From Zootoca vivipara (lineage: Eukaryota), in contig NC_083292.1 in NCBI RefSeq assembly GCF_963506605.1, positions 29,512,001-29,576,000 on the forward strand: a DNA stretch of 64,000 bases. The letters run 5' to 3'. The notes under the pieces are model-generated. The model saw nothing but the letters and a program-made list of their open reading frames with translations, was not told the origin of the DNA and searched no databases. A program made the position numbers and the translations under genes. Every line of letters starts with the position of its first letter. Position 1 is the stretch's first letter. Shown in pieces: positions 25,176-60,387 of the stretch.

Positions 25176-25903
25176 TATAGAACCTGAGCCTGCATTAATA
25201 TCCCAAGGGGGCATCGTTTCCTTCATAGCCACAGCCTTGAATTCAGGCAGAAATCAAGCATTGCTCTGCCTCTCTCTAGCTTCTAGATCACATCACTGTA
25301 GGCTCAACTCTTACCTCTCATCTTTCTAACTACCAGGCCGAACCTCTGCCACCTCCCCACCCTCCCACAGGGACTGCAGTGAAGCTAGTGAAGCTACTGA
25401 GCTGCTTCTTGAAACTACCTATTCCACGCTTTCTGAAATAATGTGCCAATCGGGGGGGAGGGAACAGCCACCCATCAAAATCCGTACCTCTCCGAATGTT
25501 ACAAGGTAGTTTCCCAGGCAAGGAATGTGTACAAATACACACGCGAAAGTGTAAAAATGGCACACTACGGTACACTGAAAATAACATACGCAAACACATT
25601 GCATTCGACAAAATTGCTCATAATTGGATTTCTGTATTTTAATATTTTGTTGGAAGCCGCCCAGATGGGCAGGGTATAAATATTATTAATATTATTATTA
25701 TAAATTCACACCAAAATTTTCATTTGGATTTTTTTTTAAAAAAAATGCAAACTGGTGTGGAAATGTGAAGACTTAAGGTTGGAAAAGAAACCCATGGAGA
25801 TAGGAATCCGGCCCGCTGCTCGAAGTCCGGTTCGCCACCCCCGGCATAGACAACACTAGACTAGCTAGAGAAATCGCCTTGATACGGCGGCGTGAAAACT
25901 GAC

Positions 25904-26173
25904 CTCCCCCTTGGCGTTGGCATCGTTCACAATCTGCAGGAAGTGCTGGATTTGCTCAGGTGAAGGTGGGCAGAAGTCGGTGATGCGCAGTCGGTGGAGC
26001 TGGATGCCGGGGCAGGTGTCGTGGTACGGTGGGCTGCGCTCCGTGAGTGACACCAGATGTCGGATGCCATGTTCGTGCATGTACCGGTAGTGTGCGGGCA
26101 GGCGGGGCATGGCCAGCCCCGCCAGCTGGCCTGGCGCTACCCAGGAGAAATTGGGTGGCATGTCGGACGCCAT
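25904..26173 (-). CDS. DUSP23: DUSP23 coding exon 1
   Basis: MASDMPPNFSWVAPGQLAGLAMPRLPAHY...RHLVSLTE...DFCPP...ANAKGE. 270 nt, phase-0 donor GAG|gtcagt. Acceptor ctcacag 5 nt upstream of the ATG (exon starts 26178). Spliced product is 151 aa. Confidence 0.96.
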
Positions 26174-38310: not shown

Positions 38311-38933
38311 ACCTTCAAACGAAGGCATTCATATTCCCAGCGAGTTCAAACACAGCCGCTGTGGTTTTGAATGCCTTGTTCCAGGATCCTTTGACCAGCG
38401 TCACTGTCTGCCTGAGAAGCTACACACTGCTGACCCGCTCCTACGGCCTCTTCTCTTACGCCACACAAAAAAGCGACAATGAGCTCCTGATCTTCAAGCC
38501 CAAACCCAACCAATACAACTTTTATGTGGGTAGCTCAACAGTGACCTTCAGTGTTCCGGAAAGAACAACCTCTGGACCTCGGTGGGAGCACATCTGCATG
38601 AGCTGGGAGTCTGCCACGGGGTTGGTGGAGTTCTGGTTGGACGGGCAGCCTCTCCCCCGAATGGGCATGAAGAAGGGTTACTCTATAGGCCCAAGGGGAT
38701 CCCTTCTCCTGGGGCAAGATCAGGATACCGTTGGAGGTGGCTTTGATATCAACCAGTGCTTTGAAGGAGAGCTCACAGATGTGTACATGTGGGACCGGGT
38801 GCTGACCTCAGACGAGGTGCTTCTCATCCGCAATGGTGGCACCCTTTCCAACTATCTTGTCAACTGGAGATCCCTCAGCTATCAAATTAAGGGGTATGTC
38901 GTAGTTAAGCCTTCCCTTATGACCATCTACTGA
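38311..38933 (+). CDS. Short pentraxin PTX-A exon 2, pentraxin domain (228-aa precursor)
   Basis: Acceptor cctgcctccag|AC. DLQTKAFIFP...FSYAT..DNE...HICMSWES (pentraxin signature HxCxS/TWxS)...LGQDQD..GGGFD...GELTDVYMWD. AATAAA at 39153. Confidence 0.95.
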
Positions 38934-39109
38934 ACTAGGGAGCTGTCTTAAATGAAGCCCTTGCCTAAAAAGAAATGGAGCTGTCTTAAAATTATCCAGA
39001 TTTTCTTCAGGGTGTTTCAGTCATGACGGTGTTGATGTCAACTCTTTCAGCCTGTAAACAAGTTCCAGGAAATCATACATGCAACTTCTCCTATATACCA
39101 TTGCCCTTC

Positions 39110-39157
<48 letters not shown>
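39110..39157. repeat. (AAT)n microsatellite in the PTX-A 3' UTR
   Basis: About 15 tandem AAT units ending in AATAAA. Confidence 0.95.
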
Positions 39158-39158
<1 letters not shown>

Positions 39159-40725
39159 GATTGCATTTTATTTCCTTTTCCTTTTTTAAAAAAATGTTTG
39201 TATTGCTGAGGAGAGAATGGGACAGATGTCTAACCGGATGTGGGAATGCTGTGGATACTAGCAGAGGATATATTGATTTAATAGTATCCTTCCTCAGTCA
39301 TGCTTGTGGGTCAACAGCAGAGTGCATTCCCCGATATATAGCAGGAAGCTAGTTGGTAGATTTGTTTGAATCCCTTTACAGTACTTAAGCAATCCAATCT
39401 GGCTTTGTCCAAGGGAGTCCCCTTTTATCCCTCCTAAATAGAATAAAGACACAACAATCTTCTTTACAAGTAATAAGAAGTTTACTTGCATTCAGTTCAC
39501 AGTTGGATCCCTGAAGGCAGGCTTTAGCTTAAGAGTTACAGAAAAGAATGTGGGTTCGTCCCACATGGGGATTTCAGCCCATGTCCTGCTGGCTGAGAGC
39601 CAGCAGACAGCAAAATACAACAGTATCAGCAGAAAAACAGCAAAAGAGAAAGAATGGCATCAAGAGGAATATGGCTGCGTGACCAGCCCTTTTTATGGGG
39701 TCTCCCAGGGTCATGCCCATCTACCTGGTCACACGCAGAGGGAGGAAGCTCCAGACCAGGTGTGACAGGAAGTCCTCCTGGCTGGAGTAACATTCCCCTC
39801 TGTGTCCACTCTGGGCAAACAGGAAGTGCTGTACTTGTCTGCTTATGTTACATCCCACAGCGGAATGGTCCAGGCAGGTTTTGGGAGGAAAGGCTTTGTT
39901 TTGCTTCTCCCAAAATCTGGAGGTGGGGAAGTAGAGTTGTGTGCACAATGGCCTCTTGGCACCCTCCATCCTATTTTGGAAGCAGATCACTTTGGGTTTT
40001 TTTGGGGGGGGCGGCTTTCACAACATTTCTCCAAGGGTAGGAGAAATTCCCCAATGTTCTCTCAGGGGTGGCCTCACCTGCACCGTTAGCAGCGGTAGCA
40101 GCGCAGCTACCTTCCAGACTGGAGAAAGGGAATAAAATAACTGTTTCCACAGATGCGTAAAATTGCTTTTACCTCAGTGAGGATATTTAGTAATTTATAG
40201 ATCTGTATCAAATGGGAACTTCACAGTCTGAACATTTTGACAGTAAGAGCAGTTTAACAATGAAAACAATTAAGTAGAGCAGTGGGGGAGAACTTTTCTG
40301 GCTCCTCCCAAGCCAACATTGATGGTAGGTTAGTTTTTCTGTACACACTCACAAACCATTCTGTCTTGCATCCAGGCAAGTAAAAGACACCATCACACTT
40401 CAAGGACTCATTCTGGCCAAGCAAAGACACTCAAGGGGGGTGCAGAGCATATTGCAGATATTAATATTGCGCAGCTTGAAGCAGTAGGATGAATAAAAAG
40501 TCTTGGAATAAAGATTGTCCAGACCCATCAATATACTGTAATTCGAAAGCTTTACTCCAGAACTTTCTTCAAACAGACTTAAGTGGTTGCATAATTTAAA
40601 TGCTTCTCCAAGCATAGGTTCAGCGCCTTTAAAATATAATGCAACTCCAAACAGACCAGAAATCAAAAGTCTTCCTCTCCACACAGACTCCATTAAAGTC
40701 TGGAGCTGTTTTCTCGCCAGCAGAG

Positions 40726-41130
40726 ACCTGATTAGTACATATTTCTACTTTGGTGGTTTTCGGACCCACACAAAATTGTGGTTTGAAGCCCTCCCATATA
40801 TGTCTCTCATTGCCAGAGAATTGAAAGGGTTGGGGATTCAGTTCCTTACAACAGACCACCGGCCCTCAGAGTGCTTTACTCCCATTCCAGAATATTCCGC
40901 GCCTCGTGCTAAGCCTACAGGTGACCTTTTTTTCTGAAGTAGCGAAGAAGACAATGCACAGTGTGATAAGTCAAGCTCCCAGCTCAGGTGGTGGCCACTG
41001 TGGGGATTTCCAGACATCCAGCAGCATTTCAGAGGGCTTTAAACAGAAGAAACGCAGCTTTGTTTCAGGTAAAAGGCACCCTTTGTTTCCAATAAGAGAC
41101 ATTATTTTGGCCAAGGAGGACTCGGTGACA
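40726..41130 (+). pseudogene. Candidate decayed pentraxin exon-2 remnant
   Basis: Phase-1 ag|AC CTG start reading DLISTYFYF (cf. DLQTKAFIF), followed by colinear nucleotide remnants of VVLKA, TDLxRPxxxFSY, VTF and IILGQEQDS. The preceding sequence is homologous to the PTX-C intron. Frameshifts and stops are present. Confidence 0.45.
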
Positions 41131-41495
41131 GCGTGGAATCTTGTTCAGACCTCATGTTTCCCCATCGCCAAGTCATGGCTCTGAGATCAGGAGAGGACTT
41201 GAACTTCCTCCCCTCTGCTTTTGTCCTTCAATAGAGTTTTGTCTCCAACACAACTGAAGACCAAACAATCTAAAACTGATAATTTAGTCTAGGAATGGTG
41301 GAAGAAATTTGATTTCATTCACCTTTAAAGGCAAAAGCAATGTATGCAGCGCTTTCCAAAGCAATACGTGAACTGGAACGCAGTTTCTGAATTTTTCAAT
41401 GCCGTTCTACAGCCACGTAATGTGGGCATGAATGCACACCCTTGGATAGGAGTGGGCATAAACATGTGTATATTAGTAAATAACATACAAAATAT

Positions 41496-42196
41496 GAGAG
41501 CACAAAATATGGTCTGAAGCTCAACATCAAAAAAACCAAGATCATGGCCACTGGTCCCATCACCTCCTGGCAAATAGAAGGGGAAGAAATGGAGGCAGTG
41601 AGAGATTTTTACTTTCTTGGGCTCCTTGATGACTGCAGATGGTGACAGCAGTCACAAAATTAAAAGACGCCTGCTTATTGGGAGAAAAGCAATGACAAAC
41701 CTAGACAGCATCTTAAAAAGCAGAGACATCACCTTGCTGACAAAGGTCCGTATACCGGTAGTTAAAGCTATGGTTGTAGTGATGTATGGAAATGAGAGCT
41801 GGACCATAAAGAAGGCTGATCGCCGAAGAATTGATGCTTTTGAATTATGGTGCTGGAGGAGTCTCTTGAGAGTCCCATGGACTGCAAGAAGATCAAACCT
41901 ATCCATTCTTAAGGAAATCAGCCCTGAGTGCTCACTGGAAGGACAGATCATGAAGCTGAGGCTCCAATACTTTGGCCACCTCATGAGAAGAGAAGACTCC
42001 CTGGAAAGGACCCTGATGTTGGGGCACTAGGAGAAGGGGACGACAGAGGACGAGATGGTTGGACAGAGTTCTCGAAGCTACGAACATGAGTTTGACCAAA
42101 CTGCGGGAGGCAGTGCAAGACAGGAGTGCCTGGCGTGCTATGGTCCATGGGGTCACGAAGAGTTGGACACAACTAAACGACTAAACAACAACAACA
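41496..42196 (+). mobile_element. BovB (RTE) LINE, ~700-bp 3' fragment
   Basis: DSSHKIKRRLL.GRKAMTNLDSILKSRDITL.TKVR...ESWTIKKADRRRIDAFELWCWR; (CAA)n tail; flanking repeat aacatacaaaa. Confidence 0.92.
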
Positions 42197-43017
42197 TACA
42201 AAAATGCATTGTATTTGAAAAAATGGCTGTGCAGAACATTGTATGTTACCCAAAATCTTATATAAATGGTGGGAAATGGAAATGGACAGATTTGCCCCTC
42301 CCCAGCACCTCCCCACTGATAAGCAAGAGGCATCATCATAGATCAAGGATACATTTGAGTCAGGTGGGAGACCAGAACAGGGATGGCGAGAAGATTAAAA
42401 CAATTCACTGGAAAAAGTATCAAATGAAGCAGAACTGCAGTGTGTATACTGGCAAGTCACCAGAGAGCTCTGTTTCTCAAAGAATGACGTATTTTTGCAA
42501 TGAAATTTCCCCTAACATAATGCATTCCTGTATTTATTTATTTTTAACTAATAAATGCATTTACATGCAGACTTTACCCTAGAGCAGGTGTGGGGAAACT
42601 TTGGCCCTTCACTTGTTTCTGAACTACAATTCCCATTATCCCTAGCAAGTATGGCCAATAGCTAGGCATGATGGGAGCCGTAGTTCAGCAACCTCTGGAG
42701 GGCCAAAGGTTCCCCACACATGCCTTAGCACATGCCACACAGGACGTGGCAGGGTAACCGCATTGCAAAATTCAGAGTACAAATTTCACAGGATGTCTGG
42801 GTTTGGGTTCACATATAGTTTAGGAAAGCGGGAATTAATTATGTTTGTCTTTAAATGTGAACTGAATTGGATTTCTGTCCCTTCCCTAAGTTGGAGGGTG
42901 AATGTAGGGAGCCTCCCACAGTCTTGGAGGCTTCCTGCATATTTCAGGTGTTCCAGAGAGGCAAAGCCACCTGGTTTGCTCAGAAGGAAGGTGTTAAACC
43001 AAGCAAAGGTCTGGTGA

Positions 43018-43515
43018 ATAATAATAATAATAATAATAATTTTATTTATACCCCGCCCTTCCCATTCATGACTGGGCTCAGGGCGGCTAACAACAAGAAT
43101 ATCAAAGCAAGCATAAAAGAAACAATTCAATTAAAATGCAGATTAAATACAATGTTAAAAATCAATTTTAAAATTAGGAATCTACAAGTGCAACCTCATT
43201 TAAATATCTGTAGGATAAAGCCTTAGGGGAGGGTAACACCGGGGTCAGACTGAGTCAGTCCAAAGTCCAAGCGGAACAGCTCCGTCTTGCAGGCCCTACA
43301 AAAAGATGACAACTCCCGCTGGGCCCTAGTGTCCTGAGAGAGAGCATTCCACCAGGTCGGGGCTAGTACTGAGAAGGCCCTGGTCCTGGCCGAGGCCAGT
43401 CTAACCACCTTGTGACTCGGGATCTCCAGTATGTTATTATTTGTGGACCTTAATGTCCTCTGCGGGGCATACCGGGAGAGGCGGTCCTGTAGGTACGAGG
43501 GTCCTAAGCCGCATA
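43018..43515 (-). mobile_element. L2-clade LINE 3' fragment
   Basis: GLGPSYLQDRLSRYAPQRTLRS...RAFSVLAPTWWNAL; same subfamily as 62690-63173. Confidence 0.82.
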
Positions 43516-44923
43516 AGTGGTGAATGCTAAGAAACTTGCCTGGGGAGAATCCAAGGGCCAGGCAAAGATTCCTGGGGGGCCACATCTGGTCCTTGGGCCT
43601 GAGACCTCTCACCCCTGCCCTAGCATCCAAAGGGCAGAACATCATCATAAAAGCACAGAAGTAAATGCCAGAGGTGCTCTTGTGGATTAAGGGGGCAGTA
43701 ATCTTGATTGTTCTGTAAGATTATCCCTATGATAGGAAATACACTTTAATAAACTTGCCTCTAATCTTTTCAGCAGCCTTGGCAGGCATAAAAAGCCACC
43801 TGAGAAGCAACATTTACCAGAATGGGCAACCGACCTTCTGGACATGTGTTTCATAAGAACAGGTGCCAGGTAGAAATCAGCGGCCAAGAAGATGGAGTCT
43901 CAAGGAGGTTGCCAACACACACCCTGGAAGGAGACACGAGAGACAAGTGGTGGTGGTCCTATTAAACATATCATTTGTGCTCATATTAAACATAGCAGAT
44001 AGAAGATTTGCCAAAAACCCCACCTAATTGTGTAACTATGGTGGGTTTGAATTAACGCCTAAGAGGGAAGTATCCCTCAATCCCCTGGGCATATGAAAAA
44101 CTGTGTTCCATGGCTCAGCGGCCAAGAACGATGGGAAAACTCTCTCTCCTTGCTCAGAGAACCCAATATGTTCACCCAGACCCATCGGCCAGGATTCACC
44201 AAGATGCACATGCCAGGTCCGAAGGACACCCCAAGCTGAAGGCTGTAGAAGGGGACAGGCTCAAGGCTCAAAACCTGCATAAAGCTGGAGAAAACAAATT
44301 TCAACATTTTGTGCCAAATAGCTCACAATGTATGGGAAATAATATAACAATTCAAAAAACAGATTCAGGTAGGTAGCCGTGTTGGTCTGTCATAGTCATA
44401 ATAAATAACAAGATGAAAGATTAAAAAAAATTATGAAAAGATGGTCCAAAAAGAGCTCCCTTAAGTCTTTTTGTCTTAAGACAGACTTTAAAAGACTCTA
44501 AATTCTTTTTATTTTGGAAATAATTCCAGTAGCATAGATTCACAAATCACACCATATTGATAATAAAAAAATGCATCCTTGGATCCTTTTAAAAGTCTAA
44601 AGGGTGTGCCTCCCCCATTTTTTTCAAGCAAAGAACTGTATCACAAAATTCTGAGAGTTCAGATACATTATTTCATTCAGTGTGATTTCTCCACATTGAA
44701 TTTTTCAGAAAACCTACCGTATTTCTACCTGTAAATTCTGTATCCCACAAGGTTGTCTGGAAAGCCTCCCGCCATCTGTGTGGGCTAAGAGGGATCATTT
44801 TCATACTGGCAGGGTTTTGCTTTTTTAAAAACCCAGCTGACAACTGATACCACGTTTGGGATGGGAAAAAATATTTCCATCTATTTCATGGATTATCCCC
44901 CTGCAAATCCCTTGCTGTGCACC

Positions 44924-44930
44924 TATAAAT
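44924..44930 (+). promoter_or_regulatory. TATA box of PTX-B
   Basis: TATAAAT ~140 nt upstream of the ATG, followed by ccagagag as in the PTX-D promoter. Confidence 0.65.
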
Positions 44931-45066
44931 ACCAGAGAGACTCTCCAGTAGCTCCAAATCGGTGATCAGCTTCAACCAGGGAGGAGGTCTCCAAGGTAGA
45001 TCTGATCGTTTCGCGGAGATCCATTTCATCCTCCCTCCAGGCCCCTCCCACCGAGCAGCCAGCAGC

Positions 45067-45130
45067 ATGGAGATCTTCCATCCCTTTCTCCTCATCCTTG
45101 CTGGCCTGCTGGGATCTCTTGCCCAGGAAG
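45067..45130 (+). CDS. Short pentraxin PTX-B exon 1, signal peptide
   Basis: MEIFHPFLLILAGLLGSLAQE(D), good Kozak context (agcATGG), donor GAAG|gtgggt. Confidence 0.9.
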
Positions 45131-45859
45131 GTGGGTGCCATGTTGAGCTGTAAAAGCAACCCAGGGGTGTGAGCTGGAAGGCTGGGGCACATTCGTGAAA
45201 GTGACTTTAGAGGAGATAAGACAAATTCATGGTGTAGGATGGGGCTATCAAGGGCTATTAGGCATGACATATGGAAACAAAGAATTGCAGCAAGGAGTGC
45301 AGCTTTTCACAATTCCAACTCCTTCTTTCCACCCTTTCCACCATCCCTTTAAAAAAAAAAGCTTTTCTGTTTCTGAGTTGTTCTGTGTTCTGTTCTGCTT
45401 CCACCTGTGATTCAGGTTCTGAGTCTTTTTGTGTTCCCCATAATCTTTTATGGGGAATATAAAAGCAGCTATCACTCCCTCCCCCTTTTGACAGAAGCAG
45501 ATGGAATTTGCAGGTAATCGTTCCAGACAATACTTTCTACTATTTGAAATATAGATGTTTTCAAAACTTGTGCTGTCTCTTAATCGGAATCAGTTTGTCT
45601 CCCTTTTCTATGATACTCTCGACTGGAGATATTCAAACCAGAATAGAAAATCACCACCTATTAACTGTTTTATTTCTTCTTATGACCGAAAAAAGTCATC
45701 ATATACCTAATTAAACTATGGAATTTGCTCCCACGAGAAGTAATGATGACTTCCAGCAGCAGCAGCAGCAGCAATTTTATTATTTATACCCCACCCATCT
45801 AGCTGGGTTTCCAGGAGGGCTTTAAAAGAGAAGTAGATGAATTCATGGGGAATGGCTAT

Positions 45860-46324
45860 TGTCAGGCCTGAGGAGGAATGGTGGGAACCGAGAAGAGGAG
45901 GACAGTATAGATTTAGAACAGTGGTTTGCAGAAGGTCATTGTTCAGAGGCTGCAGAGGAGAAGAGCTGGGAAATATTGGGGGAGCAGCAGGAAGAAGCAG
46001 CACCAGGGGAGAGACAGCTAACACACTCAGTGTCTCTTGAAAGCATTCCCTCCCCTCCCCTCCCAGAACCAGGTGTGCCTTGAGGGTAGTAGAACAGAAA
46101 GCTCAGAGGCAGAAAGCACAGATAAGCTGGTGCAGTAGTGATGTAGAATAGGAGGGACTGAGGGGGTGGGACTTTACTTGGAGCAACATCATTATCTAAG
46201 AGAGATCGCATTCATTCGTCTCTCTCTGTGAATGTTGAATAAACTACTCGGTAAGAACTCTTCTGGTTTTTCTGCTTCTTGGCATCCCACCGCGAGAGAG
46301 ATAGGATTCCCTGAAGCCTTGACA
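45860..46324 (+). mobile_element. Solo LTR in the PTX-B intron
   Basis: TG...CA termini (tgtcagg...cttgaca), perfect 5-bp TSD gctat, internal AATAAA at ~46238. Confidence 0.75.
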
Positions 46325-46852
46325 GCTATCAATGGCTACAAACCATGATGGCTTTGTCCTATCTCCACTGTTGGAGGTAGTCTGCCTTTGTTTTGTTTTT
46401 TAATCAACATTTTTATTAGGTTTTCCAATTTAAACATCTACTTAATTCTCAAATTATACAAATTATGCAAATATCAATTAAACAATTAATCCAGATCTTC
46501 TGCCAAATTATACAAATTTAAAATTGACTTCCCATGCTTCAGACTCAGAAAGCTATGACCTCCTCCTGTCACTGCTTTCTAATCAATAATATCCAGATCT
46601 TATCCAATAATCTATTAAAATCCTTTCATCTTCTTTCAGGCCCCTGAGTTTTCTCAGGCAAGCGAATTTGACCAACATATAAGTTTCTGTGTGAATTTGT
46701 GCCTATGATTCCTCTGTAAGTTAACGCTGTCTCTTCGCACGCTGGCAGCTTGCCAGGTCTGTGCAGCAATCCAAAGATCCTTCTCTCTCAGCCAGCAGCA
46801 GCCATCTTTAAGCAGTCCCCATAAATCAGATCTTTACGCTCCTATAATAATA

Positions 46853-47196
46853 ATACCTGCCAAGTTCCTGCCTGAAAAATAAGGGATCGGACCGGAAGTA
46901 GCAGACTGGAAGTAGCGCTGCCGCCATTTTGGAACTGGGCGGAGCATGCTCAGAAGCGACTTTTGATGCTGCTCTGCCCTGTTCCAAAATGGCCGCCCCA
47001 CCAGAAGTCGCGCTGCAGCCATTTTGGAACTGGGCAGAGCAGCATCAAAAGTCGCTTCTGAGCATGCTCCGTCCAGTTCCAAAATGGCCACCGTGCCAGA
47101 ATAAACCAGGGAAAAACAAAAAAATCTGTTTTTTCAGCTGGGAACAGCTGGAAAAACGGGGGTTTCCCGGGGAATACAGGAGACTTGGCAGCTATG
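46853..47196. mobile_element. hAT-like non-autonomous element with internal inverted repeats
   Basis: Ends atacctgccaagt...acttggcagctatg, ataataat flanks, internal gccattttggaact...gttccaaaatggc hairpins. Confidence 0.7.
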
Positions 47197-47724
47197 ATAA
47201 TAATTCGCTCCAGATCGCTTCTCGAGATAGCCTTTTCAGGGGGAGAATTGCCAAGTCAAACCTATAAAAACATATCCAATGTCTTATTTATGGCTCTCTC
47301 TCCCCCTTTGACTAATCTCGCGCCGGCGTGGTCTCTCTGTGTCCGACTCTGAATTAAAGCTGCGTCATAACTCAAAAGTTTCTCGACAAGTTTCCAGCTG
47401 CTAATAATACAGTTTCTCTTTGATGACCATGATTTGAGGAGTCTTTAACCACATTCCAGGCAATTCCAATAGTGCTTACTTTGATTATTTATGTTTTCAA
47501 TTCCCACAGCATATATATTCAAAGGACCATATTAATTCAATAAATTTCAACTTTCTCATCTCGCTTGCTTTGTAAATACTATTTTCGGTTCTTTAGGTGG
47601 GAGGTTGTTAAGTGCAAATATAATAAAGCGAAGCTATAAAGTTCTCGCTCCCCCTTTCAGTTCCGTCAAATACATACATTTCTTGTTGGTTACATTCCTC
47701 TGTCATCTTTTGTTTTCTCTTTTT

Positions 47725-48235
47725 TTAAAAAGCAATTTATTAGATTTTCCAATTAAAACACATTAAAAAAGATTAAACAAACAAACATTACAAAAACAAT
47801 CACACACATACATACATCTTTTTTAACAATTCTCTCCCATCTTAAACAGTGCTCCACCGAGCTTGACTTCCCTCCCTCCCCTCATTTGGTTTTCTATTCA
47901 GTTCTTATCTCGCAGTTCCTTTATACTTCCCATTTAATGTCAATTCGTAGGATTTATTTCAGTCCTGCAGGTGTCTTTAAGCTTCTACAGTTCTTTTCCA
48001 TATAGTCCACAAATTTACTCCAGTCTCTTTGGAACCTTGCTTCCCCCTGGTTCCGAATCCTGCTAGTCAGTCTCGCTAATTCTGCATAGTCTATCATTTT
48101 TGTCTGCCACTCTTCAATCGTCGGTAAGTCCTGAGTTTTCCATTTTGGGGCTAACAGTGTCCTAGCCGTGGTTGTCGCATACAAGAATAATATATTGTCC
48201 TCATCTTTTGTTTTCTCAGTGGCAGAGTTTAGCAG
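47725..48235 (-). mobile_element. L1/Tx1-clade LINE 3' fragment (flanking 46400-48530 likely contains further L1 pieces)
   Basis: LFLYATTTARTLLAPKWKTQDLPTIEEWQTKMIDYAELA...F.RDW.KFVDY motif. Confidence 0.72.
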
Positions 48236-48810
48236 AATAAACCTTCTTTCCTTGTCTGAAGCATGTCCGTGACTTAGTCCAATCTTTCTCTTATCATGGA
48301 GCCTGTTTCGCTCGTAGAAATGGCGTTCGGGGGATCCGAATTCCCACGGGGGCTTTTCACCCAGAGCCCCCCATCTTCCCCCTTCCCAAGGTCGGAGATG
48401 GTAGCGGGCCACTGCGGGTGAGACTGCACCCCCCCATACCCTGAGGGGGCTTCGGGAGCCTGCATACTCCCCTTGGCAGCCTCGTAAATCAGCCCGTGAG
48501 ATCGGAGAGGTGGAATCTATCAGCCATTTTCTAGTGCACCCTCAAGTCTGCCTTTGAATGCCAGTTGCTGGGAATCACAAGTACAGAGTGTGTCGTTGAG
48601 CTCATGACATGCGTGTGAGCTTCTCATTGGTTGACCACTGCAAGTACATGATGTTGAACCGGATGTGGCCAACATCCAGACATCCTTCAGATGAGGCACA
48701 TGGAGAATACAGAGCCTAGCGTGAATAATGGCACCGTCTTGACGCCATACTAATCCTTGGGGGACAAAATGCCTGCTCCTTTTAATCTGTTGTCTTCCTC
48801 CACCCCCCAG

Positions 48811-49442
48811 ATCTTGAAAGGAAGGTCTTCATATTCCCGGAATCATCGGACACCAGCCACGTGGTTCTGAAGGCCACCTCACAGCAGCCTTTGACCAGCT
48901 TCACCATCTGCCTGAGATCCTACACCGACATGACCCGCGCTCACACCCTATTCTCTTACGCCACCAAGACGAGCGACAACGAGATCGTGGTCTTCAAATC
49001 CAAAACCAACGAGTACAGCCTTTATGTGGGGACTGCCGATGTGATTTTCTTCTTCCCAGAAAAGCTGGTTTCAGAACCTAGCTGGGAGCAGATCTGTATG
49101 AGTTGGGAATCTGAGACAGGATTAGTGGAGTTCTGGCTCGATGGGCAACCTTTCCCCCGAAACGGTATGATGAAAGGTCATGTTATAAGTCCAGAGGCAT
49201 CGATTGTCCTGGGGCAAGATCAGGATTCCTTTGGGGGTGGCTTTGATATCAACCAGTCCTTTGTAGGGGAGCTCACAGATGTGTACATGTGGGACCGGGT
49301 GCTGTCTGGGGACGAAATGTGCCTTGTGTGGGGCAACCATGTTCCTTCCAACCCAATAATTAACTGGAGATCGTTAAATTATGTCATGAGAGGCTACACC
49401 GTTCTTAAGCCCTCCTTGTTTTCCAACTGTAGAGCTGAGTAG
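48811..49442 (+). CDS. Short pentraxin PTX-B exon 2, pentraxin domain (231-aa precursor)
   Basis: Acceptor caccccccag|AT. DLERKVFIFP...FSYATKTSDNE...QICMSWES...LGQDQDSFGGGFD..QSFVGELTDVYMWD...SNCRAE*. AATAAA at 49656. Confidence 0.95.
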
Positions 49443-49754
49443 GCTTTGAAAACAGATGGAGAGTCTTTAAAAAAAAATTACAAGGGGGTGGACTAAATGA
49501 TCCTTAGGGTCCCTTCCAACTCTACGATTCTATGCTTCTTTGATTGAAACCTCCAACAGGGCAATAGACACTGTTAGTTGCATTGATTTCAATTCTTTCT
49601 GCCAGAATGAGGAGTTCTGTGAAACCCACAAGCTGCCGTTTCCGTTTATTCCTCCAATAAAAGATTAACTCATACGTCTGTTGTATCCTTCAGCAGTTTC
49701 TGCCTTCAACAACAACCTTCGGAGGGGAGACTTGAGTTTGTTTCTTCCAAAGTC

Positions 49755-49760
<6 letters not shown>

Positions 49761-49804
<44 letters not shown>
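49761..49804. repeat. (TG)n microsatellite
   Basis: About 22 TG units. Confidence 0.95.
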
Positions 49805-49807
<3 letters not shown>

Positions 49808-51067
49808 CGCTTTTAAAGCTGATTCTACCTGATTCACACTTTCCAAAACAATGCATGAACTGTCACACAGCCATCCTGCCAATTCCACACTGCTCTGAAC
49901 CTTGCAATGCCATGTCATGTGTACAGCCAACATGTGCAGATACTGGGGGTGAAGTGTGCATACAAATGCGCATATTAGTGAAAAGCAGCTTACAAAATGC
50001 CTTATTTCTATCAGGGAAAATTCTTTTTGCAAAATTGTGCATATTAGGCAAAATTGCCTAGAAAAGTGTGTCTATTAGGAGAAATTTGCACTAAAAAGGT
50101 GATACATTTGGGTGATACTTTTTTCTAATAATGATGATTATGATAATAATAATAATAATAATACTGTAATAATAATAATAAAGCAAATGAGCGTGTGAAG
50201 AACTGAAGTTAAGATTGGGAAAAGGAGAAAATATAGAAATCAATACACTGGCAGATTTACCCGTCTCTAGAGACGTGGGGGGTGGGGGTGCTGATTAATC
50301 GGGGGGCATTTCGTTGCCCTTGTAGTTTGACTTGGGGAAGGGGAACAGCAACTCAACTCATCTTTTTTTGGCCCCAGCACAGAATGGCTAAGCACCTCTA
50401 CCATAAACCACTTGACATCATTTTATGTGTTCACAAATATTTGGACAGTAATCTAAAGTCTGTGAAACTGGGCCTGCAGGATGGTATGTCGTTCCCCCCC
50501 CCCACGCAGGAAAGGTGGAACCAGGTGTTAAATCAACCACACCTTTTTTTTTTTTAAAGTGTATTTTATTGATTTTCAAGAATCACATTTCAGCTGCTCT
50601 TTCACGCCAAACAAAAACCAAGTAAAAAGGAGTACGGTCTCCTCGTTTGCATAAAGCAATTACAAGTCTACACCATGGTATATAAACACATCTAAATTCT
50701 CTCTGTAGCGATTCATGCGTCATCAAAGGTTCTATTCAGGAAGCCGACTTCCTGGCCTAAGTAAGAAACATAAACCAGGTTGTCTCAAGTTTGAAATCAA
50801 TGCCTTTCTGAAAATGTTCTTGCTTTTGAACTCCTTTGTGAAAAACATCCCCCTTTGGACTCCTTTGTGAAAAATTGAAAGCAAGGAAACGCCAGTTGCC
50901 AGTTCTTAGGTAATCTTTCCAGAAGAGGATTTGCCAAAACATTTCCCTTCATGCCCCTCAAGCGCATATTTGGGACAGAATTTGAAGCTCTCAGTTGAGA
51001 ACCGATCTCTTGAAGAGCCTGTTATCTTGACACCCTCTTGCCTCTCTTCGTTCTGCAGTCAGGCAAG

Positions 51068-51131
51068 ATGGAGAAAGCGTTCCTCTCCCTTCTTGTCCTC
51101 GTGAGGGTCTTGGGGTCTTTTGGCCAGCAAG
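51068..51131 (+). CDS. Short pentraxin PTX-C exon 1, signal peptide
   Basis: MEKAFLSLLVLVRVLGSFGQQ(G), donor CAAG|gtgggt. MEK...FGQ resembles the mammalian CRP leader. Confidence 0.88.
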
Positions 51132-53222
51132 GTGGGTGACAACCTCAGTTGCATTGGTGTGTGTTTGTGTGTGAAAAAGTGTGTGTGTGTGGGGGGGAGG
51201 GCTTCTGTAGCACAGTCTCGCACATACAAAACCTTTTTTTAAAAAGGATTTTAGATTTCTGACACAACACCTTCATTCTTTGTTTATTTAAAGGGATGGG
51301 TTGAATCTAGAAGAGGGGTGTTGTTGTTTTTTAAGGAGGAAGAAGAAGAGTTTGGATTTGATATCTGGCTTTATCACTACCCCAAGGAGTCTCAAAGTGG
51401 CTAACATTCTCCTTTCCCTTCCTCTCCCACAACAAACACTCTGTGAGGTGAGTGGGGCTGAGAGACTTCAAAGAAGTGTGACTAGCTCAAGGTCACCCAG
51501 CAGCTGCATGTGGAGGAGTGGAGACGCGAACCCGGTTCCCCAGATTATGAGTCTACCACTCTTAACCACTACGCCATACTGGCTCAGTGGCGGTTGATGA
51601 TCCCACTGCAAAATTCTGTTGCTTCAACCCTCTTGGAGCCAGGGGTGGAGGAAGCTGCTCAGGCACCTGGGGTGGCGCACCCAGGGGTGGGGCAAGCCGC
51701 CGATAGGGGCGGGGTGCACCACAGGGCCTCCGGAGTCTGCCTGTCTCCTCCCACTCAGCTGCCCTACAGCTTGGAGGAGGGGGGCATTGGGGGGGATCAT
51801 TAGGGCGGTGTGGAGCCTGTGCGTACCCAAGCCACCGTGTCTCTCCCAGGAGAGACGCTTGGCTTGGGCATGCTACAGGCCTCACGGTGAGTGCTGCCTG
51901 GCATTTTCTCACCCTGCATTGGTGACACACGGGGTGGACCGCACCCACCACACCCCCTTCCTTCACCCCTGCTTGGAGCCCCCTTCCTCATGGAGATGAA
52001 ATCAGGGAAATGAAGGACTTCTGCAAAGGAGGCATGGCGGCTGCTGCTGCTGCTGCTGATGGTGACACTTGAAAGTTTGGGGAAAATTCTTAGGGAAGGC
52101 AGCCTCAGGGCTTGCAGAACCTAGAACAGGTGAGATGCAGAGAGAGACGAGTATCTCCTGCTGCCTTTGATGCGAAGGAAGGCAGAAAGTTTTGATAAGA
52201 AAGTTGTGACATTTTCTCTCTCTCTCTCTGTTTGGGACTATTGCAGTTATTAATATTGCACAGCATGAAGCAATTGGATGCATAAAAGCTGACTCCTTTC
52301 GGAATAAAAATTGCCCAGGCTCATAATTAAGATTCAAAGCTTTACTCACCAGAACCTCTTCAAAACAGGCACAAAACTATCAACAACACATTCTAGAAAG
52401 TTGTATAAAGCACATGCATATCCAAGCATAGGTTCTTCTTCCTAAATATATAACTTAATTATGACCAGAGCGGAAATCAGTGCTTTGCCTCTCCCATAGC
52501 CTGCATCCAGCCTAAGGCCATGCAGCTCCAGAGAAGGCCTTTTATCACGTCCTTCTTTCACTGTGCCAGGGAACAAAAGGCAAAGGCGGCTTCCTTTCAA
52601 AATGGCGAATTTGCAATTGAGCACTTTAATCTAAGGTTAAACACTCATGTGAAGGATGATGGTTTAATTTCCTGAAATTAATAAAATTAATAAAATAGGA
52701 ATGTTTGCTTATGTTGGGTTACTGTGTCTTTTTCACATGGGGCTTTTAAATCTGGCAGAGGCTTTCATGTGATTGGCTGACTGTGAGTCACATGAGAGTG
52801 GCATTCCATTCTGTTGTGACTGTTATGCCTATAACTGTCATTTTTAACTGTTTCTCTCTCTCTCTCTGAGAGAGGCTACTCAGGATAATGCTGTGGGCAG
52901 TGTGTGAGCTGGTGTGATCTATCTGAAGTGAAACAGACAGAGGAAGATTCCTAAATGTTAATAAGGATAAACGTGTGCAGGGGCTAGATTGTAAATATAT
53001 TCTTCTCAGCTATATGTTTATGACAGTAAAGTTATTTTTGAATATAAAGAGTCTTTATATACTGTCTTTACAAAGAAGTTTTCAATCACTCAGAATAGTT
53101 ATTTAGCTTCCTAGTTGTAAGCTACTCTGCAAATTATCAAAATTTACACCCACACCCACACAGGCTAGCAGAGAACATCGGTAGTTAATTATCAACAGGT
53201 TATACCTCAGAGAGAGCTTCAG

Positions 53223-53446
53223 TACAGTCATACCTCAGCTCCCGAATGCCTTGGGAGTGAAACGTTTCAGCTCCCGAGTGATCGAAAACCGGAAGTGAGT
53301 GTTCCGGTTTTCGAACGTTCTTTTGGAAGCTGAACGTCCGACAGGGCTTCCGCGGCTTCCAATCAGAAGCCGCACTTTGGATTTCGAACGTTTTTGAAGT
53401 CGAACGGAGTTCCGGAACGGATTCTGTTCGACTTTCGAGGTACGAC
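53223..53446. mobile_element. Tc1/mariner (Tigger-like) MITE in the PTX-C intron
   Basis: tacagtcatacctc...gaggtacgac; body similar to 37820-37950. Confidence 0.6.
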
Positions 53447-53568
53447 CTTCAAAGGAATAGTTCAACGTGAAACCCTTAGCAACATACATACAGGCATTCT
53501 CCAATTCAGTGTGCAATTAAACAATTATATATAACGTGGCATCCTTAATTCTCCTCCTCTCACCTCAG

Positions 53569-54185
53569 GTTCGGGCCTCGCTGGGAAGCAGCTAGTTTTT
53601 CCACAGGCATCGAACTCTGCCCACGTGGTTCTGAAGGCCGCCCCGAAGGGGCCCTTGACCAGCTTCACCCTCTGCCTGGCCCACTTCACGGACCTCAACC
53701 GCCCCCACACCTTCTTCTCTTACGCCACCCGGGGAAGTTTCAACGAGATCATCCTCCTCAAAGAAAGAAACGACAAGTACGGATTTGCAGTAGGGAATGA
53801 AGCCGTGACCTTCACGGATCTGGAACAAAAATCGCTTGGCAGGGAGAACTTGTGTGCGACTTGGGATTCTGCCACCGGTTTAGCAGAGTTGTGGGTGAAT
53901 TCAAAGCGGATGCCCCGCAAGGGCCTAAGGAGAGGGTACTCCATAAGTGGGGTGCCGTCCATCGTGCTCGGTCAAGAGCAAGACACTATGGGGGGCGGCT
54001 TTGACATAAACGATTGCTTTGTGGGGGAGCTGCAGGATGTGAGAATGTGGGACCGGGTTCTCTCCAGTGAAGAGCTGCAGCTTGCTTGCAGAAACCTAGA
54101 CGTTCCTGGCGACCACGTGTTCGACTGGAAAACAGTCGATTATGAAATCAAGGGTTATGTTATTGTTAACCCCGTGGCCTACTGA
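53569..54185 (+). CDS. Short pentraxin PTX-C exon 2, pentraxin domain (226-aa precursor)
   Basis: Acceptor cacctcag|GT. SGLAGKQLVFPQASNSAHVVLK...FSYAT...NLCATWDS...LGQEQDTMGGGFD...GELQDVRMWD...GYVIVNPVAY*. Confidence 0.94.
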
Positions 54186-54670
54186 GGCAGGGGTTACCTG
54201 AAATACAAGATGCTGGTCTAAGAAAAGGTCTCTCTGTGTGTGACTTTTCTTTACTTAGCTATTCCTGTGTTGATCTCTGAAGCTTGCTGCAGATTTTGTT
54301 TTTTTGGGTGTGTGTGTGTGTGTGTTGTAAAATTCAATGAAATGTGAATTTCAAATGATACCTGCATCTCGGTTCCTGAATTGTTCTGTGAAGTGCAGTT
54401 AGGGTAATACAAACCAGACCAAATTTCAAACTCCAACTGAAGTATCCCCTTGGGTGTGGGAGGAGGTTTAAGGGAAGTCTTTTCCTGGGAAAGATTGTGT
54501 AACAATTGGCAGCTGGGGACGTTTCTAAATGAAACTTGGCAGAATCAGAAAAAGGTCACAAAAATCAGATGTAATCTTTTCTGGAGAAAGAAGAATTGAC
54601 AAGAGGTTTGCATTCCTTATATTACCACTGCACCACCTTTGTGGGAGGGCGGGGTATAAATACCGGTAAA

Positions 54671-54718
<48 letters not shown>

Positions 54719-55295
54719 GAGATTTTGCAGCCCCATGACTTCTCCTGAGCATGTTGGGCGCCTCATAAATAAGAAGACGTAGGGGAAAGAATGTGAGATG
54801 TGATACATAAGTAGCAGTCAAGTACAACATTCCTTGTTTTCCTAGAGTGGACATGCAAGGGAATGTTTGGTCCAGTTAGTTGAAAACTTCCTGTTTCCTC
54901 CTGACTGGGACTTACTTCCTTTTGCATGTGACTAGAGGTGGGCGTGACCTTACCTGCCCAGGTAACAAAAGGGCAAGGCACACAGCACACTCTCTTCTTC
55001 GCCTCTCTTCTCCATCTTGCTTTCGTTGTGTAAGCTGCAGTGGCTGCCAGTCTGCAGTCACTGGAATTACCACCCCACCCACCCAAAATATGGGGTAGAT
55101 CCACATGTATATACTTTGTAACTAAGTCTGCCTTCAGGGATCCAACAGTGCACTGATGTGAGTAAACTTCTTTTATATACTTTACACAAGATTGTGGCGT
55201 GCTTATTCTTTTAAGAGGGATATAAGGGGACTTACCAGGAACCTAATATTGAGAGGCTTAAACAAGTCTGCAACCAGCTGTCTGCTGTGCATTAA

Positions 55296-56400
55296 TTTTT
55301 TTTTAAAAAAATAAATTCTTTATTGTTTTAATAATTTAAAATACAAAAACAAGAATAAAGGAAAAAAGATACACCCAAAAAATACATAAAGAAGAAGAAG
55401 AAAAAATAACAAAAAGCAAAATACAACCATAAAAACGCTTCCAATTATTTAGTCTGTAATTTGTGTTTTCATTATTTTATCGCACAGTTGTAACTATCTA
55501 CTTGCCGTTTCATTTCTTATTATTTATACCAGGTTCAGCCTAGATCTATTAGGATTTCAGGTATACCATTATTCGTTAAATATTCTTCAAACATCCTCCA
55601 TTCCTTCTGTGTTTTTTGTCTCATTTGTCCTCTTATTCTTCCTGTTGTTTTTGCCAACTGTAGGTATTCTAACATTAAAGTTTGCTAATCTGTTATGCTG
55701 GGTAAACTTTTACTTTTCCAATTTCTAGCCACTAAGACTCTTGCTGCAACTATCCCATGTCCTTTTTGTTGTTTTAATGTCTTCTGGTATTATATTTAAT
55801 AAAAATATTTCTGGTTTTTCCCCTAAACGTATATTTTAACAGTTTCTTAAGTTCTTCATAGATTACATTCCAATATTTACATATGTTGGGACAGCTCCAC
55901 CACCTATGTATAAAAGACCCCTTTTCTCCATTACACCTCCAGCACACAGAGGATTTGCTCTTATACAGCTTGGCAAGTTTCTCAGGCATTTGCTACCACC
56001 TGTACATCATCTTTAATATATTCTCTCTTAAATTGTAGCAGGCGGTAAATTTCATATCCACCCTCCACAGTCTTTCCCAGGGGTCAGCAAACTTTTTCAG
56101 CAAGGCGCCGGTCCACTGTCCCTCAGTCCTTATGGGGGACCAGACTATATTTTGGGAAAAAATATGAACGAATTCCTATGCCCCACAAAAAACCCAGAGA
56201 TGCATTTTAAATAAAAGGACACATTCTACTCATGTAAAAACATGCAGATTCCCGGACCATCCGCGGGCCAGATTTAGAAGGCGATTGGGCCGCATCCAGC
56301 CCCCGGGCCTTAGTCTGGGGACCCCTGGTCTTTCCCATTTAAAGGGGGGTATAAACTCTGCTAAGTAAAGGAACTTGCTAGCGCAAGTTAGGAAAGTTAT
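55296..56400 (-). mobile_element. L1-clade LINE 3' fragment interrupted by a hAT element at 56078-56327
   Basis: CCHC-type zinc knuckle CWRC...H.WWSC; the inserted element has TSD gtctttcc on both sides. Confidence 0.8.
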
Positions 56401-56436
56401 TAATAAACAATATATTAATAAACAATATTAATATCA

Positions 56437-56729
56437 GGGAAATCAGCCCTGAGTGCTCACTGGAAGGACAGATCCTGAAGCTGAGGCTCCAATACTTTGG
56501 CCACCTCATGAGAAGAGAAGACTCCCTGGAAAAGACCCTGATGTTGGGAAAGATGGAGGGCACAAGGAGAAGGGGACGACAGAGGACGAGATGGTTGGAC
56601 AGTGTTCTCAAAGCCACCAACATGAGTCTGACCAAATTGCAGGAGGCAGTGGAAGACAGGAGTGCCTGGCGTGCTATGCTCCATGGGGTCACGAAGAGTC
56701 GGACAGGACTAAACGACTAAACAACAACA
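56437..56729 (+). mobile_element. BovB (RTE) LINE 3' fragment
   Basis: MRREDSLEKTLMLGKMEGTRRRGRQRTRWLD; (CAA)n tail. Confidence 0.9.
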
Positions 56730-57951
56730 TATCCTCTCCTGCCTCCCTGAACATTCCCACAAAGAAATTATAGCTGCCAATACTCCATTATTTTTCTTGT
56801 AAGGTGCCCTCAGCTCTGCCTTTGGTCTCCGAATATGGCCATCCCCCACAACAACCCTGTGAGGTAGGCCAGGCTCTGTGTGGTTGGCCTGAGGTCACAT
56901 GGTGAGTTTCATGGCAGAATGGCGATTTTAAGCCTGTTCTCCATCCCACATTCTTGAAAATAAGGTGAGGAAAGGAATAACCTCTGGGAGGGAGATGATG
57001 TTTCTCCATAGGTCTGGAAATTTATGGGATCCTTTGTCAACGATCTTATGTATTGTGGTTATGAATAGTGCACATTTGGAAGCAAAATGGATGAATAAAA
57101 CCAGAAATTAAAAATTGTCCAGTCCAAAAATATGGTTCAAAGGCTTTACTTACAGAACGTGCTTCGAAACAAACGAAAAACAAAAAAAAAATGTTACATT
57201 CAGGCAACAGCATGATATCATGTGCTGATCTCATGACAGGTCTGATCATGTCACGACAGGTCAGGTCAGGTCACGACAAGACAAGACAAGACAAAGCACA
57301 ACAAGACAAGACAAGAATGCTGAAGTGCAGTTTTCTAGCAAAGTAATGTGTGCAAAAATATACAGTCTATGCGCAGCTGATGCCTGCATTGATTCATGAA
57401 AATACCATATTTTTCTATGTATAACATGCCCTCATGTAGAAGACGCCCCCTATTTTTGGGGGGAAGATTGTATCCGTGTATAAGACGACCCACAATTTTG
57501 AACATAATTTTAAAATTAAAAAAATCCTAGTCTTATACACAGAAAAGTACGGTAACTTACAATAAGGCATTACATTCGGGAAACCATTTTGCGGAAGTGT
57601 GTATATCAGACAAAAGCGCATACAAAGCACCTATATTCACCCTAAGCTGCTGACGAACTTTCACAAGTACTAGTAAAAAAAATTGCAATTTCAAACCGAA
57701 TCAGAAATGTAGAGAATGGAAGACTGTAAAAACGAGAAATGGAGAATAACCCAAACTGACAGATCGGAAGAAGATTAGCATAGGTTCAGGTGGGGGAGGG
57801 GAACCTTTGGACCACCCAGATGATGCAGAAACTAGAGCTCCCATCGTTGCTGGGAGTTGTAGTTGAGCAAAATCCAGAGGGCCAACCCCCCCCCCCCAAA
57901 TCTCACAGAAATATTAATAGAGCGACTTCTTGACGAGCCAGCAAGAGACTC

Positions 57952-58634
57952 TCATAGCGCCACCCTCCTCCAGCAGGAGGGCACCGCTTGCAAAGGGCAC
58001 CCGCAATCCGCTCGGCTAACTGGCAAGAGGGTGTGCGTGAGAACAACGTTGCCCTTGATCTTGTATGCCAAGGACCCCCAGTTGATCACGGAGTTGGCCG
58101 GGATGCGTTTGTCCCCCACGCGGCACATTTCCTGGGGGCTCAAGACCCGTTCCCACATGTAGACGTCGGTGAGCTCGCCTACGAAGGACTGCATCAAGTC
58201 AAAGCCGCTCCCCATGGAATCCTGGTCTTGCCCCAGGATGATGGAGGCCCGGGGGGTGATGGCATAGCCTGGCTTCACCGCCTTCCGGGGCAGAGGGTTG
58301 CCATCCAGCCAAACCTGGACCACCCCGCTGGTGGAGTCCCAAGCCAGGCAGATGTGCTCCCACGCGGGCAGTGGGGTCGCCCTCTCTGCGATGTTCAGCT
58401 TCACCGCATCACCTCCAACATACAGCCTGTACTGGGAGCGGCTCAGTCGGTCGACGGCGATGTCGTTGGGCTCGGCCTCCGTGGCGTAAGAGAACAGGGT
58501 CTGGGCCCGAGTGATGTCCGTGTAGAGCCTCATGCACACCGTGAAGCTGCTCAAAGGCCGCTCCAGCCTGGCTTTCAAGACCACGTGTGCCGTGTTGGTC
58601 GGCTGCGGGAAAAGGAAGGTCTTCCTCTGGAGAT
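57952..58634 (-). CDS. Short pentraxin PTX-D exon 2, pentraxin domain with Cys-rich C-terminal extension (248-aa precursor)
   Basis: Acceptor ttccgcag|AT. DLQRKTFLFP...FSYAT...HICLAWDS...ILGQDQDSMGSGFD..QSFVGELTDVYMWE...RADCGCPLQAVPSCWRRVAL*. Confidence 0.93.
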
Positions 58635-60323: not shown

Positions 60324-60387
60324 CTTCCTGGGCAAGAGACCCTAACAGTCCGGCCAGGATGAGGAGGAAGATCTGAAGGAACCCCAT
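60324..60387 (-). CDS. Short pentraxin PTX-D exon 1, signal peptide
   Basis: MGFLQIFLLILAGLLGSLAQE(D), donor GAAG|gtgggt. TATAA at ~60490-60494 upstream on the minus strand. Confidence 0.9.

What the first reader, a model, noticed from the sequence alone, without database searches (positions are those of the whole stretch)
38470..58480. Calcium- and ligand-pocket residues differ in every paralog
By-eye alignment to human CRP (Ca ligands D60, N61, E138, D140, E147, Q150; phosphocholine contacts F66, T76, E81). A = D,N,D,D,D,Q with F66/Y76/T81. B = D,N,D,D,D,Q with F66/Y76/D81. C has D60->F, Q150->D, L66/A76/A81 and a SAP-like KER. D has D60->P, F66->D and A81. None keeps the full CRP F66/T76/E81 set. 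The signature His is Q in B and N in C. Inference: distinct ligand specificities, and C and D may bind Ca weakly or not at all at site 1.
Basis: partly seen in the sequence, partly recalled or inferred. Interest (0 to 1): 0.7.

Follow-up and report, generated by a model that had tools for sequence, protein, structure and literature searches.

The report
Lizard pentraxin cluster, diverged ligand pockets
Four intact CRP/SAP-like immune genes in a lizard differ in the pocket that would pick their ligand but keep the residues that calcium binding needs, so they likely all bind calcium and likely prefer different ligands, a pattern already known from fish.

Summary
A-D are intact two-exon short pentraxins of a lacertid lizard, and C is spliced in RNA. 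Pockets do differ, but that is the family norm: 0 of 118 squamate domains carry F66/T76/E81, and they show 59 different triplets. These genes are not CRP or SAP orthologs; Y76 is the SAP-type state. Calcium loss in C and D is not supported. Position 60 is the dispensable ligand: non-acidic in 38 of 118 domains, Ser in dog CRP, which binds phosphocholine with calcium (PMC6503050), and human D60A is secreted and reported to keep calcium binding (PMC5784126). N61 (118 of 118) and D140 (117 of 118) stay fixed. Only B's pocket is more constant than family rates predict (P about 0.012 uncorrected; C 0.22, D 0.61). The signature His change is uninformative. Verdict: a real but expected case of pocket diversification in an expanded pentraxin cluster. 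It was not found described for lizards in the searches made.

The parts
34346..34409 (+). Gene A exon 1 (signal peptide, 64 nt, phase-1 GT donor)
   Evidence: agrees with annotated protein P0195
38311..38933 (+). Gene A exon 2, pentraxin domain; D60 38475-38477, N61, L64, F66 38493, N74, Y76 38523, T81 38538, D138 38718, D140, D147, Q150 38754
45067..45130 (+). Gene B exon 1 (signal peptide)
   Evidence: P0275
48811..49442 (+). Gene B exon 2; D60 48975, N61, V64, F66 48993, S74, Y76 49023, D81 49038, D138, D140, D147, Q150 49254; N149 sequon; two extra Cys
   Evidence: pocket constant in 11 lizard orthologs bar one S74N
51068..51131 (+). Gene C exon 1 (signal peptide)
   Evidence: splice joint to exon 2 in X1, X5 and X19
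53569..54185 (+). Gene C exon 2; F60 53739-53741, N61, I64, L66 53757, G74, A76 53787, A81 53802, E138 53976, D140, D147, D150 54012
57952..58634 (-). Gene D exon 2; P60 58468-58470, N61, A64, D66 58450, R74 58426, Y76, A81 58405, D138 58225, D140, D147, Q150 58189; Cys-rich C-terminal tail
60324..60387 (-). Gene D exon 1 (signal peptide)
   Evidence: P0267

Best explanation
These are four intact, signal-peptide-bearing short pentraxins from a lizard gene cluster that likely all still bind calcium and likely differ in ligand preference because the walls of their pockets differ. Shown: intact two-exon genes, pentraxin fold, N61/D140/Q139 and an acid at 138 in all four, different residues at 60/64/66/74/76/81, and splicing of C. 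Inferred from human CRP/SAP: two Ca ions held by N61, D/E138, the 139 carbonyl, D140 and Q/D150 grip a phosphate or carboxylate, and the neighbouring pocket selects the rest of the ligand. Predicted pockets, all untested. B (V64/F66/Y76/D81, old and fixed across lizards) would bind an amine-bearing phosphate head group, phosphoethanolamine more likely than phosphocholine. A (L64/F66/Y76, no acid at 81, fast-evolving) is a SAP-type pocket. C (F60/L66/G74/A76/A81) would be a larger, apolar pocket. D (P60/D66/R74) would be a charged pocket. Ca affinity at site 1 of C and D may be altered but is unlikely to be lost.
For: Gene structure. Fold. Among 118 squamate domains N61 is 118 of 118, D140 117 of 118 and 138 acidic 116 of 118, whereas 60 is non-acidic in 38 of 118 with at least 14 acid/non-acid changes on the tree. 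This matches mutagenesis: D60A and E147A are secreted and reported to keep Ca binding, the other Ca-site mutants are not secreted (PMC5784126). Dog CRP has S60/F66/S76/D81 and binds PCh Ca-dependently (PMC6503050). Human SAP's pocket is L62/Y64/Y74 (PMC4118831) = positions 64/66/76. PC-binding residues are more variable than Ca residues across 121 CRPs (PMC8956723). B pocket: 1 change observed vs 6.45 expected in 11 orthologs, P about 0.012. C is spliced, and a diverged C allele has 9 synonymous vs 6 non-synonymous codons, pN/pS about 0.28, none at Ca or pocket sites.
Against: No binding data exist. Phe and Pro at 60 are not Ala or Ser and could distort site 1. The D60A calcium claim was seen only as cited in PMC5784126; the primary paper was not held. 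The effect of Q150D in C is unknown. Pocket constancy is not significant for C (P 0.22), D (0.61) or A (0.82), and B's P becomes about 0.07 after correction for six groups, with one long-branch skink row (P0026, altered pocket) left out. So distinct selected specificities are not shown for A, C or D. A charge compensation between 60 and 150 was not supported.
Confidence: 0.7

Rival explanations
1. C and/or D have lost or crippled Ca site 1 and work as one-calcium or calcium-independent binders.
For: D60 is a crystallographic Ca ligand (PMC6503050). F and P are drastic replacements, fixed in 5 of 5 lacertid C rows and 4 of 4 lacertid D rows counted. D's amphisbaenian ortholog has A60. C also has Q150D.
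Against: All other site-1 ligands are intact. D60A is tolerated, dog CRP has S60, and residue 60 is non-acidic in 38 of 118 squamate domains while N61 never changes. A domain in the same genome whose Ca loop really has decayed (G000:C10, L005) looks quite different: it has no D140 and no Q150.
Confidence: 0.15
2. The pocket differences in A, C and D are relaxed drift after duplication, and the copies overlap in function or act through sites outside the pocket.
For: Changes at six pocket sites within A, C, D, E and F groups match family-wide rates. Ligand-contact residues of CRP are known to be variable without changing in vivo function (PMC8956723).
Against: B's pocket is held constant. D66/R74/Y76/A81 are shared by D and its amphisbaenian ortholog. 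All six pocket sites differ between lacertid C and its amphisbaenian ortholog and are then constant in 5 lacertid rows. Non-conservative charge changes must alter pocket chemistry.
Confidence: 0.25
3. C and D are decaying pseudogenes.
For: Both lack D60. D had no splice joint and no depth over 58028-58351 in four runs, which shows nothing either way.
Against: Both have intact ORFs, signal peptides and splice sites, full-length orthologs in Podarcis, Lacerta and Rhineura, and confident folds. C is spliced and has pN/pS about 0.28.
Confidence: 0.03

Closest known systems
Human serum amyloid P component (1SAC/1GYK)
   Same: Top Foldseek hit for C and D. Tyr at 76 (SAP Y74) in A, B and D, and Asp at 147. 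A's L64/F66/Y76 mirrors SAP L62/Y64/Y74.
   Different: Not shown to be orthologs. D138 replaces E136 in A, B and D. C lacks both pocket aromatics, and D has Asp at 66.
Human and dog C-reactive protein
   Same: Same fold, two-exon gene and Ca core. B shares F66 plus an acid at 81 with dog CRP (F66/D81). C and D share a non-acidic 60 with dog CRP.
   Different: None has T76/E81. None has Y175 of the C1q site (R, W, C, G). Four or more genes instead of one.
Zebrafish CRP1-7 cluster
   Same: Local tandem expansion whose isoform differences concentrate in the PC-binding pocket, with isoform-dependent lipid binding (PMC6336239, passages).
   Different: Zebrafish genes are group II; these lizard genes fall with group I (PMC5446266, section 17).
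Other squamate short pentraxins (NCBI 'CRP-like', 'SAP-like', 'mucosal pentraxin-like')
   Same: A-D are identical to annotated proteins P0195, P0275, P0262 and P0267, which NCBI names under Zootoca vivipara. The same variable-pocket, fixed-core pattern holds in geckos, iguanians, skinks and snakes.
   Different: In the sample examined, the C/F and D groups contain only lacertid and amphisbaenian rows, and the F60/L66/A76/A81 and P60/D66/R74 pockets are confined to them.

Membership tests
Short pentraxin (CRP/SAP family) | Single pentraxin domain (PF00354) behind a signal peptide, two coding exons | tested here: met
   signal peptide judged by hydrophobicity and agreement with annotated proteins
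Short pentraxin (CRP/SAP family) | Cys36-Cys97 pair | tested here: met
   all four
Short pentraxin (CRP/SAP family) | Signature HxCxS/TWxS | tested here: inconclusive
   Exact only in A; B has Q and C has N at the His, D has Ala at S/T. His is present in only 92 of 118 squamate domains, so the motif is not strict.
Short pentraxin (CRP/SAP family) | Pentraxin fold | tested here: met
   C and D models, TM 0.94 (query) and 0.95 (target) to 1SAC; A and B by sequence only
Short pentraxin (CRP/SAP family) | Dual Ca site residues needed for secretion (N61, 138, 139, D140, 150) | tested here: met
   By sequence in all four, with Q150D in C and E138D in A, B and D; D60 absent in C and D
Short pentraxin (CRP/SAP family) | Cyclic oligomer and Ca-dependent ligand binding | not testable with these tools
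   Needs protein; R118 and an acid at 155 are kept in all four, K201 is lost in C and D (interface roles recalled)
CRP proper (mammalian ortholog) | F66/T76/E81 phosphocholine pocket | tested here: not met
   0 of 4; also 0 of 118 squamate domains, and dog CRP itself has F/S/D
CRP proper (mammalian ortholog) | Orthology to mammalian CRP or SAP | tested here: not met
   The four mammalian rows form their own group (SH-aLRT 93); A-D lie in a squamate-only group (97). Quick tree, 52 rows, human sequences not included.
CRP proper (mammalian ortholog) | C1q site D112 + Y175 | tested here: not met
   Y175 absent in all four; D112 absent in C
Ca-site-degenerate pentraxins | Loss of N61/D140/Q150-type core ligands | tested here: not met
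   C and D keep them; contrast L005:6538-7146

The most novel reading that the evidence does not exclude
Lizards run a two-tier pentraxin repertoire: fixed members (B, E) plus rapidly re-pocketed ones. C and D are lacertid/amphisbaenian inventions that recognise ligand classes no characterised pentraxin binds: C a bulky apolar group in a pocket emptied of aromatics and re-walled by F60, D a ligand read by a D66/R74 pair with one or no calcium at site 1. Mixed pentamers, as in heteromeric Limulus CRP, could make this combinatorial.
Probability: 0.15. Interest if true: 0.6.

Novelty: new member of a known kind. Interest (0 to 1): 0.3.

Why it matters
A 2019 review states that no reptile CRP protein had been isolated or characterised (PMC6503050). 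This cluster offers a natural panel of four to six pockets on one scaffold for learning how pentraxin specificity is encoded. It names B as the conserved, probably core, member, and it independently supports from evolution that D60 is the dispensable Ca ligand. The general pattern (variable pocket, fixed Ca core, lineage-specific expansion) is already in print for CRPs and for zebrafish, so the surprise to a specialist is modest.

Tried and rejected
(1) Compensation of D60 loss by an acid at 150: 11 of 38 non-acidic-60 domains have D/E150 vs 10 of 80 others, but independent pairs gave no signal (median p 1, 8 pairs on supported branches, too few to reach significance). (2) Pocket constancy as proof of fixed specificity in C and D: not significant. 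(3) His95 change as functional: rejected, variable among orthologs. (4) E59 replacing D60 in gene D: doubtful, the Rhineura ortholog has N59. (5) Orthology of D to snake genes P0044/P0046/P0053: 0.90 in FastTree but unresolved in IQ-TREE, so not used. (6) Further pentraxin fragments in the window or the fetched flanks: none. (7) Expression: no RNA holder was listed on record for C; no joint was seen for D in four runs, which is no evidence; expression of A and B remains unexamined. (8) Literature on lizard pentraxin pockets: searches listed no such study. The library lacks most subscription papers, the primary D60A paper was not held, and no supplements were read (the mutant tables of PMC8956723 may bear on Q150 and E138). 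(9) Complex prediction was not run, because homo- or hetero-oligomers would pass by likeness to solved CRP/SAP pentamers. (10) Cross-species dN/dS was not possible: no ortholog DNA was available. (11) Earlier scan notes: none found.

Full report
What is there. Six-frame translation shows four pentraxin frames, all PF00354 at E 1e-60 or better. Each has a 64-nt signal-peptide exon with a phase-1 GT donor and an AG acceptor, and each spliced frame is open to a single stop: A 228 aa, B 231, C 226, D 248 on the minus strand. The domains are identical to annotated proteins that NCBI names under Zootoca vivipara. A genome search found two more close relatives on the same chromosome, E about 7 kb past the window end and F about 0.7 Mb away, plus a distant domain on C10. 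C's predicted intron is skipped in contigs of runs X1 and X5 (RNA by guess) and in 3 raw reads of RNA run X19. No joint was seen for D, and A and B were not examined.

Observation. AlphaFold models of C (pLDDT 94.5) and D (89.3, tail disordered) match SAP and CRP best. No realignment restores an acid at 60.

Is it unusual? Three homolog searches and a cluster look-up gave 278 proteins (one search listed only the best 120 of 608), cut to 294 domains including the genome's own seven. For counts I kept 118 squamate domains. I dropped 11 duplicates or isoforms, 4 fragments, the C10 domain, non-squamates and unnamed or doubtfully labelled rows. In these 118, N61 is invariant, D140 is 117 of 118 and 138 is D 67 / E 49. 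Position 60 is non-acidic in 38; 14 of those belong to the C, D and F groups and 24 are from geckos, agamids, anoles, a cordylid, a skink and snakes. F66/T76/E81 occurs in 0 of 118, and in 2 of all 283 non-duplicate domains (human CRP is not in that set). There are 59 different 66/76/81 triplets, and position 81 ranks 3rd of 207 columns in entropy. A tree built without the trait columns needs at least 14 acid/non-acid changes at 60 and none at 61. So 'differs in every paralog' and 'none keeps the CRP set' are what any squamate cluster would show.

The calcium claim. PMC6503050 (passages) lists D60, N61, E138, Q139, D140, E147 and Q150 as ligands. PMC5784126 (section 8 and reference list read) reports that D60A and E147A were secreted and are reported not to affect Ca binding, while all other Ca-site mutants tested were not secreted. 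The paper it cites for Ca binding was not held. The squamate pattern matches this split: 60 and 147 vary, 61 and 140 do not. Dog CRP (NP_001301045.1) has S60, F66, S76, D81 and KER, and is described as binding phosphocholine Ca-dependently. For contrast, the C10 domain is closest to zebrafish CRP (E 2e-54), matches squamate 'pentraxin fusion protein' records at 74-76% and has lost D140 and Q150, as have its snake and gecko matches. That is what a decayed Ca loop looks like. C and D do not look like it. Phe and Pro are harsher than Ala or Ser, and Q150D is untested, so reduced affinity remains possible.

History. The four mammalian rows group together, apart from a squamate group holding A-D (quick trees, deep nodes partly open), in line with PMC5446266 (passages and discussion read). 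B has single, close orthologs from lacertids to Salvator, Varanus, Elgaria, Sceloporus and Anolis, 98-99.5% identical within lacertids. Its pocket V64/F66/S74/Y76/D81 shows 1 change against 6.45 expected (P about 0.012, about 0.07 after six tests; skink row P0026 with an altered pocket left out). A is the fastest (84-88% within lacertids) and varies at 66 and 81. C and F are sister groups; D150 is already present in the amphisbaenian ortholog of C, which keeps D60, so D60F arose later in lacertids. D shares D66/R74/Y76/A81 and a non-acidic 60 with its amphisbaenian ortholog. Constancy in C and D is not significant (P 0.22, 0.61). A diverged C allele in X1 differs at 19 letters over its second piece, of which 17 were listed in the coding exon: 9 synonymous and 6 non-synonymous codons, pN/pS about 0.28, none at Ca or pocket sites. 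That fits purifying selection.

How it likely works. By analogy with human SAP, where the ligand carboxylate binds the two metals and the pocket is L62/Y64/Y74 (PMC4118831, passages), all four would use two Ca ions to grip an anionic group and select the remainder with positions 64, 66, 74, 76 and 81. A, B and D have the SAP-type Tyr76. That a Tyr at 76 disfavours choline is recalled from CRP mutagenesis and was not read here. B adds an acid at 81, so an amine head group such as phosphoethanolamine is the best guess. C has an emptied, apolar pocket with F60 beside it, and D a charged D66/R74 pocket. These ligand assignments are inference. None of the four has Y175 of the C1q site, so the effector face has diverged too.

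Comparison and novelty. Across 121 CRPs, PC-binding residues are more variable than Ca and disulfide residues (PMC8956723, section 9 read). In zebrafish CRP1-7 most isoform differences fall in the PC pocket or the cholesterol-binding region (PMC6336239, passages). The kind of phenomenon is therefore known. My searches (listings only) found no study of lizard pentraxin pockets, and the 2019 review says no reptile CRP had been characterised. Verdict: observation confirmed, ligand divergence likely, Ca loss unlikely; a new member of a known kind, interest 0.3.

Noticed in passing
L005:6538-7146 (+) = G000:C10 near 39673540-39674142: Zebrafish-type (group II) pentraxin domain, last exon of a probable 'pentraxin fusion protein', with a decayed Ca loop (no D140, no Q150) that is likewise decayed in snake and gecko matches. 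PMC5446266 lists group II only for fish, shark, coelacanth and frog. This is a better candidate for a Ca-independent pentraxin than C or D.
   Followed up: partly
L001:7104-7706 (-) with exon 1 near L002:416 (-): Fifth cluster gene E, 7 kb past the window end; groups with bird and turtle pentraxins (support 100), has N150 and keeps Y175.
   Followed up: partly
L003:6659-8407 (+): Gene F, sister group of C, about 0.7 Mb from the cluster; D60 here but H60 in Lacerta and Podarcis orthologs, D150 in all four.
   Followed up: partly
window 57952-58020 (-): Gene D has a C-terminal tail with three extra Cys, also present in the Rhineura ortholog and disordered in the model; it might form inter-subunit disulfides as the rat CRP tail does (recalled). 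B has a shorter Cys-bearing tail.
   Followed up: no
window 49251-49259 (+): Gene B has an N-Q-S glycosylation sequon at N149, next to Ca ligand Q150; it is the only sequon in A-D.
   Followed up: no
window 53569-54185 (+): Contig of run X1, under the same organism code as the runs that hold this stretch in full, differs from gene C at 17 listed coding letters (about 6% of synonymous sites): a deep lineage or an old allele.
   Followed up: partly
window 25868-26218 (-): Exon of a small dual-specificity phosphatase (PF22784); likely DUSP23, recalled as a neighbour of human CRP/APCS, which would suggest conserved synteny.
   Followed up: no
P0037, P0051, P0054, P0059, P0061, P0064: Several bird and turtle short pentraxins are annotated with Ig domains fused in front of the pentraxin domain; these may be real fusions or joined gene models.
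   Followed up: no
window 41602-42027 and 56382-56717: Frames resembling LINE reverse-transcriptase ends (Bov-B/Sauria type, recalled) between the genes, with very high read depth at 56084-56731.
   Followed up: no
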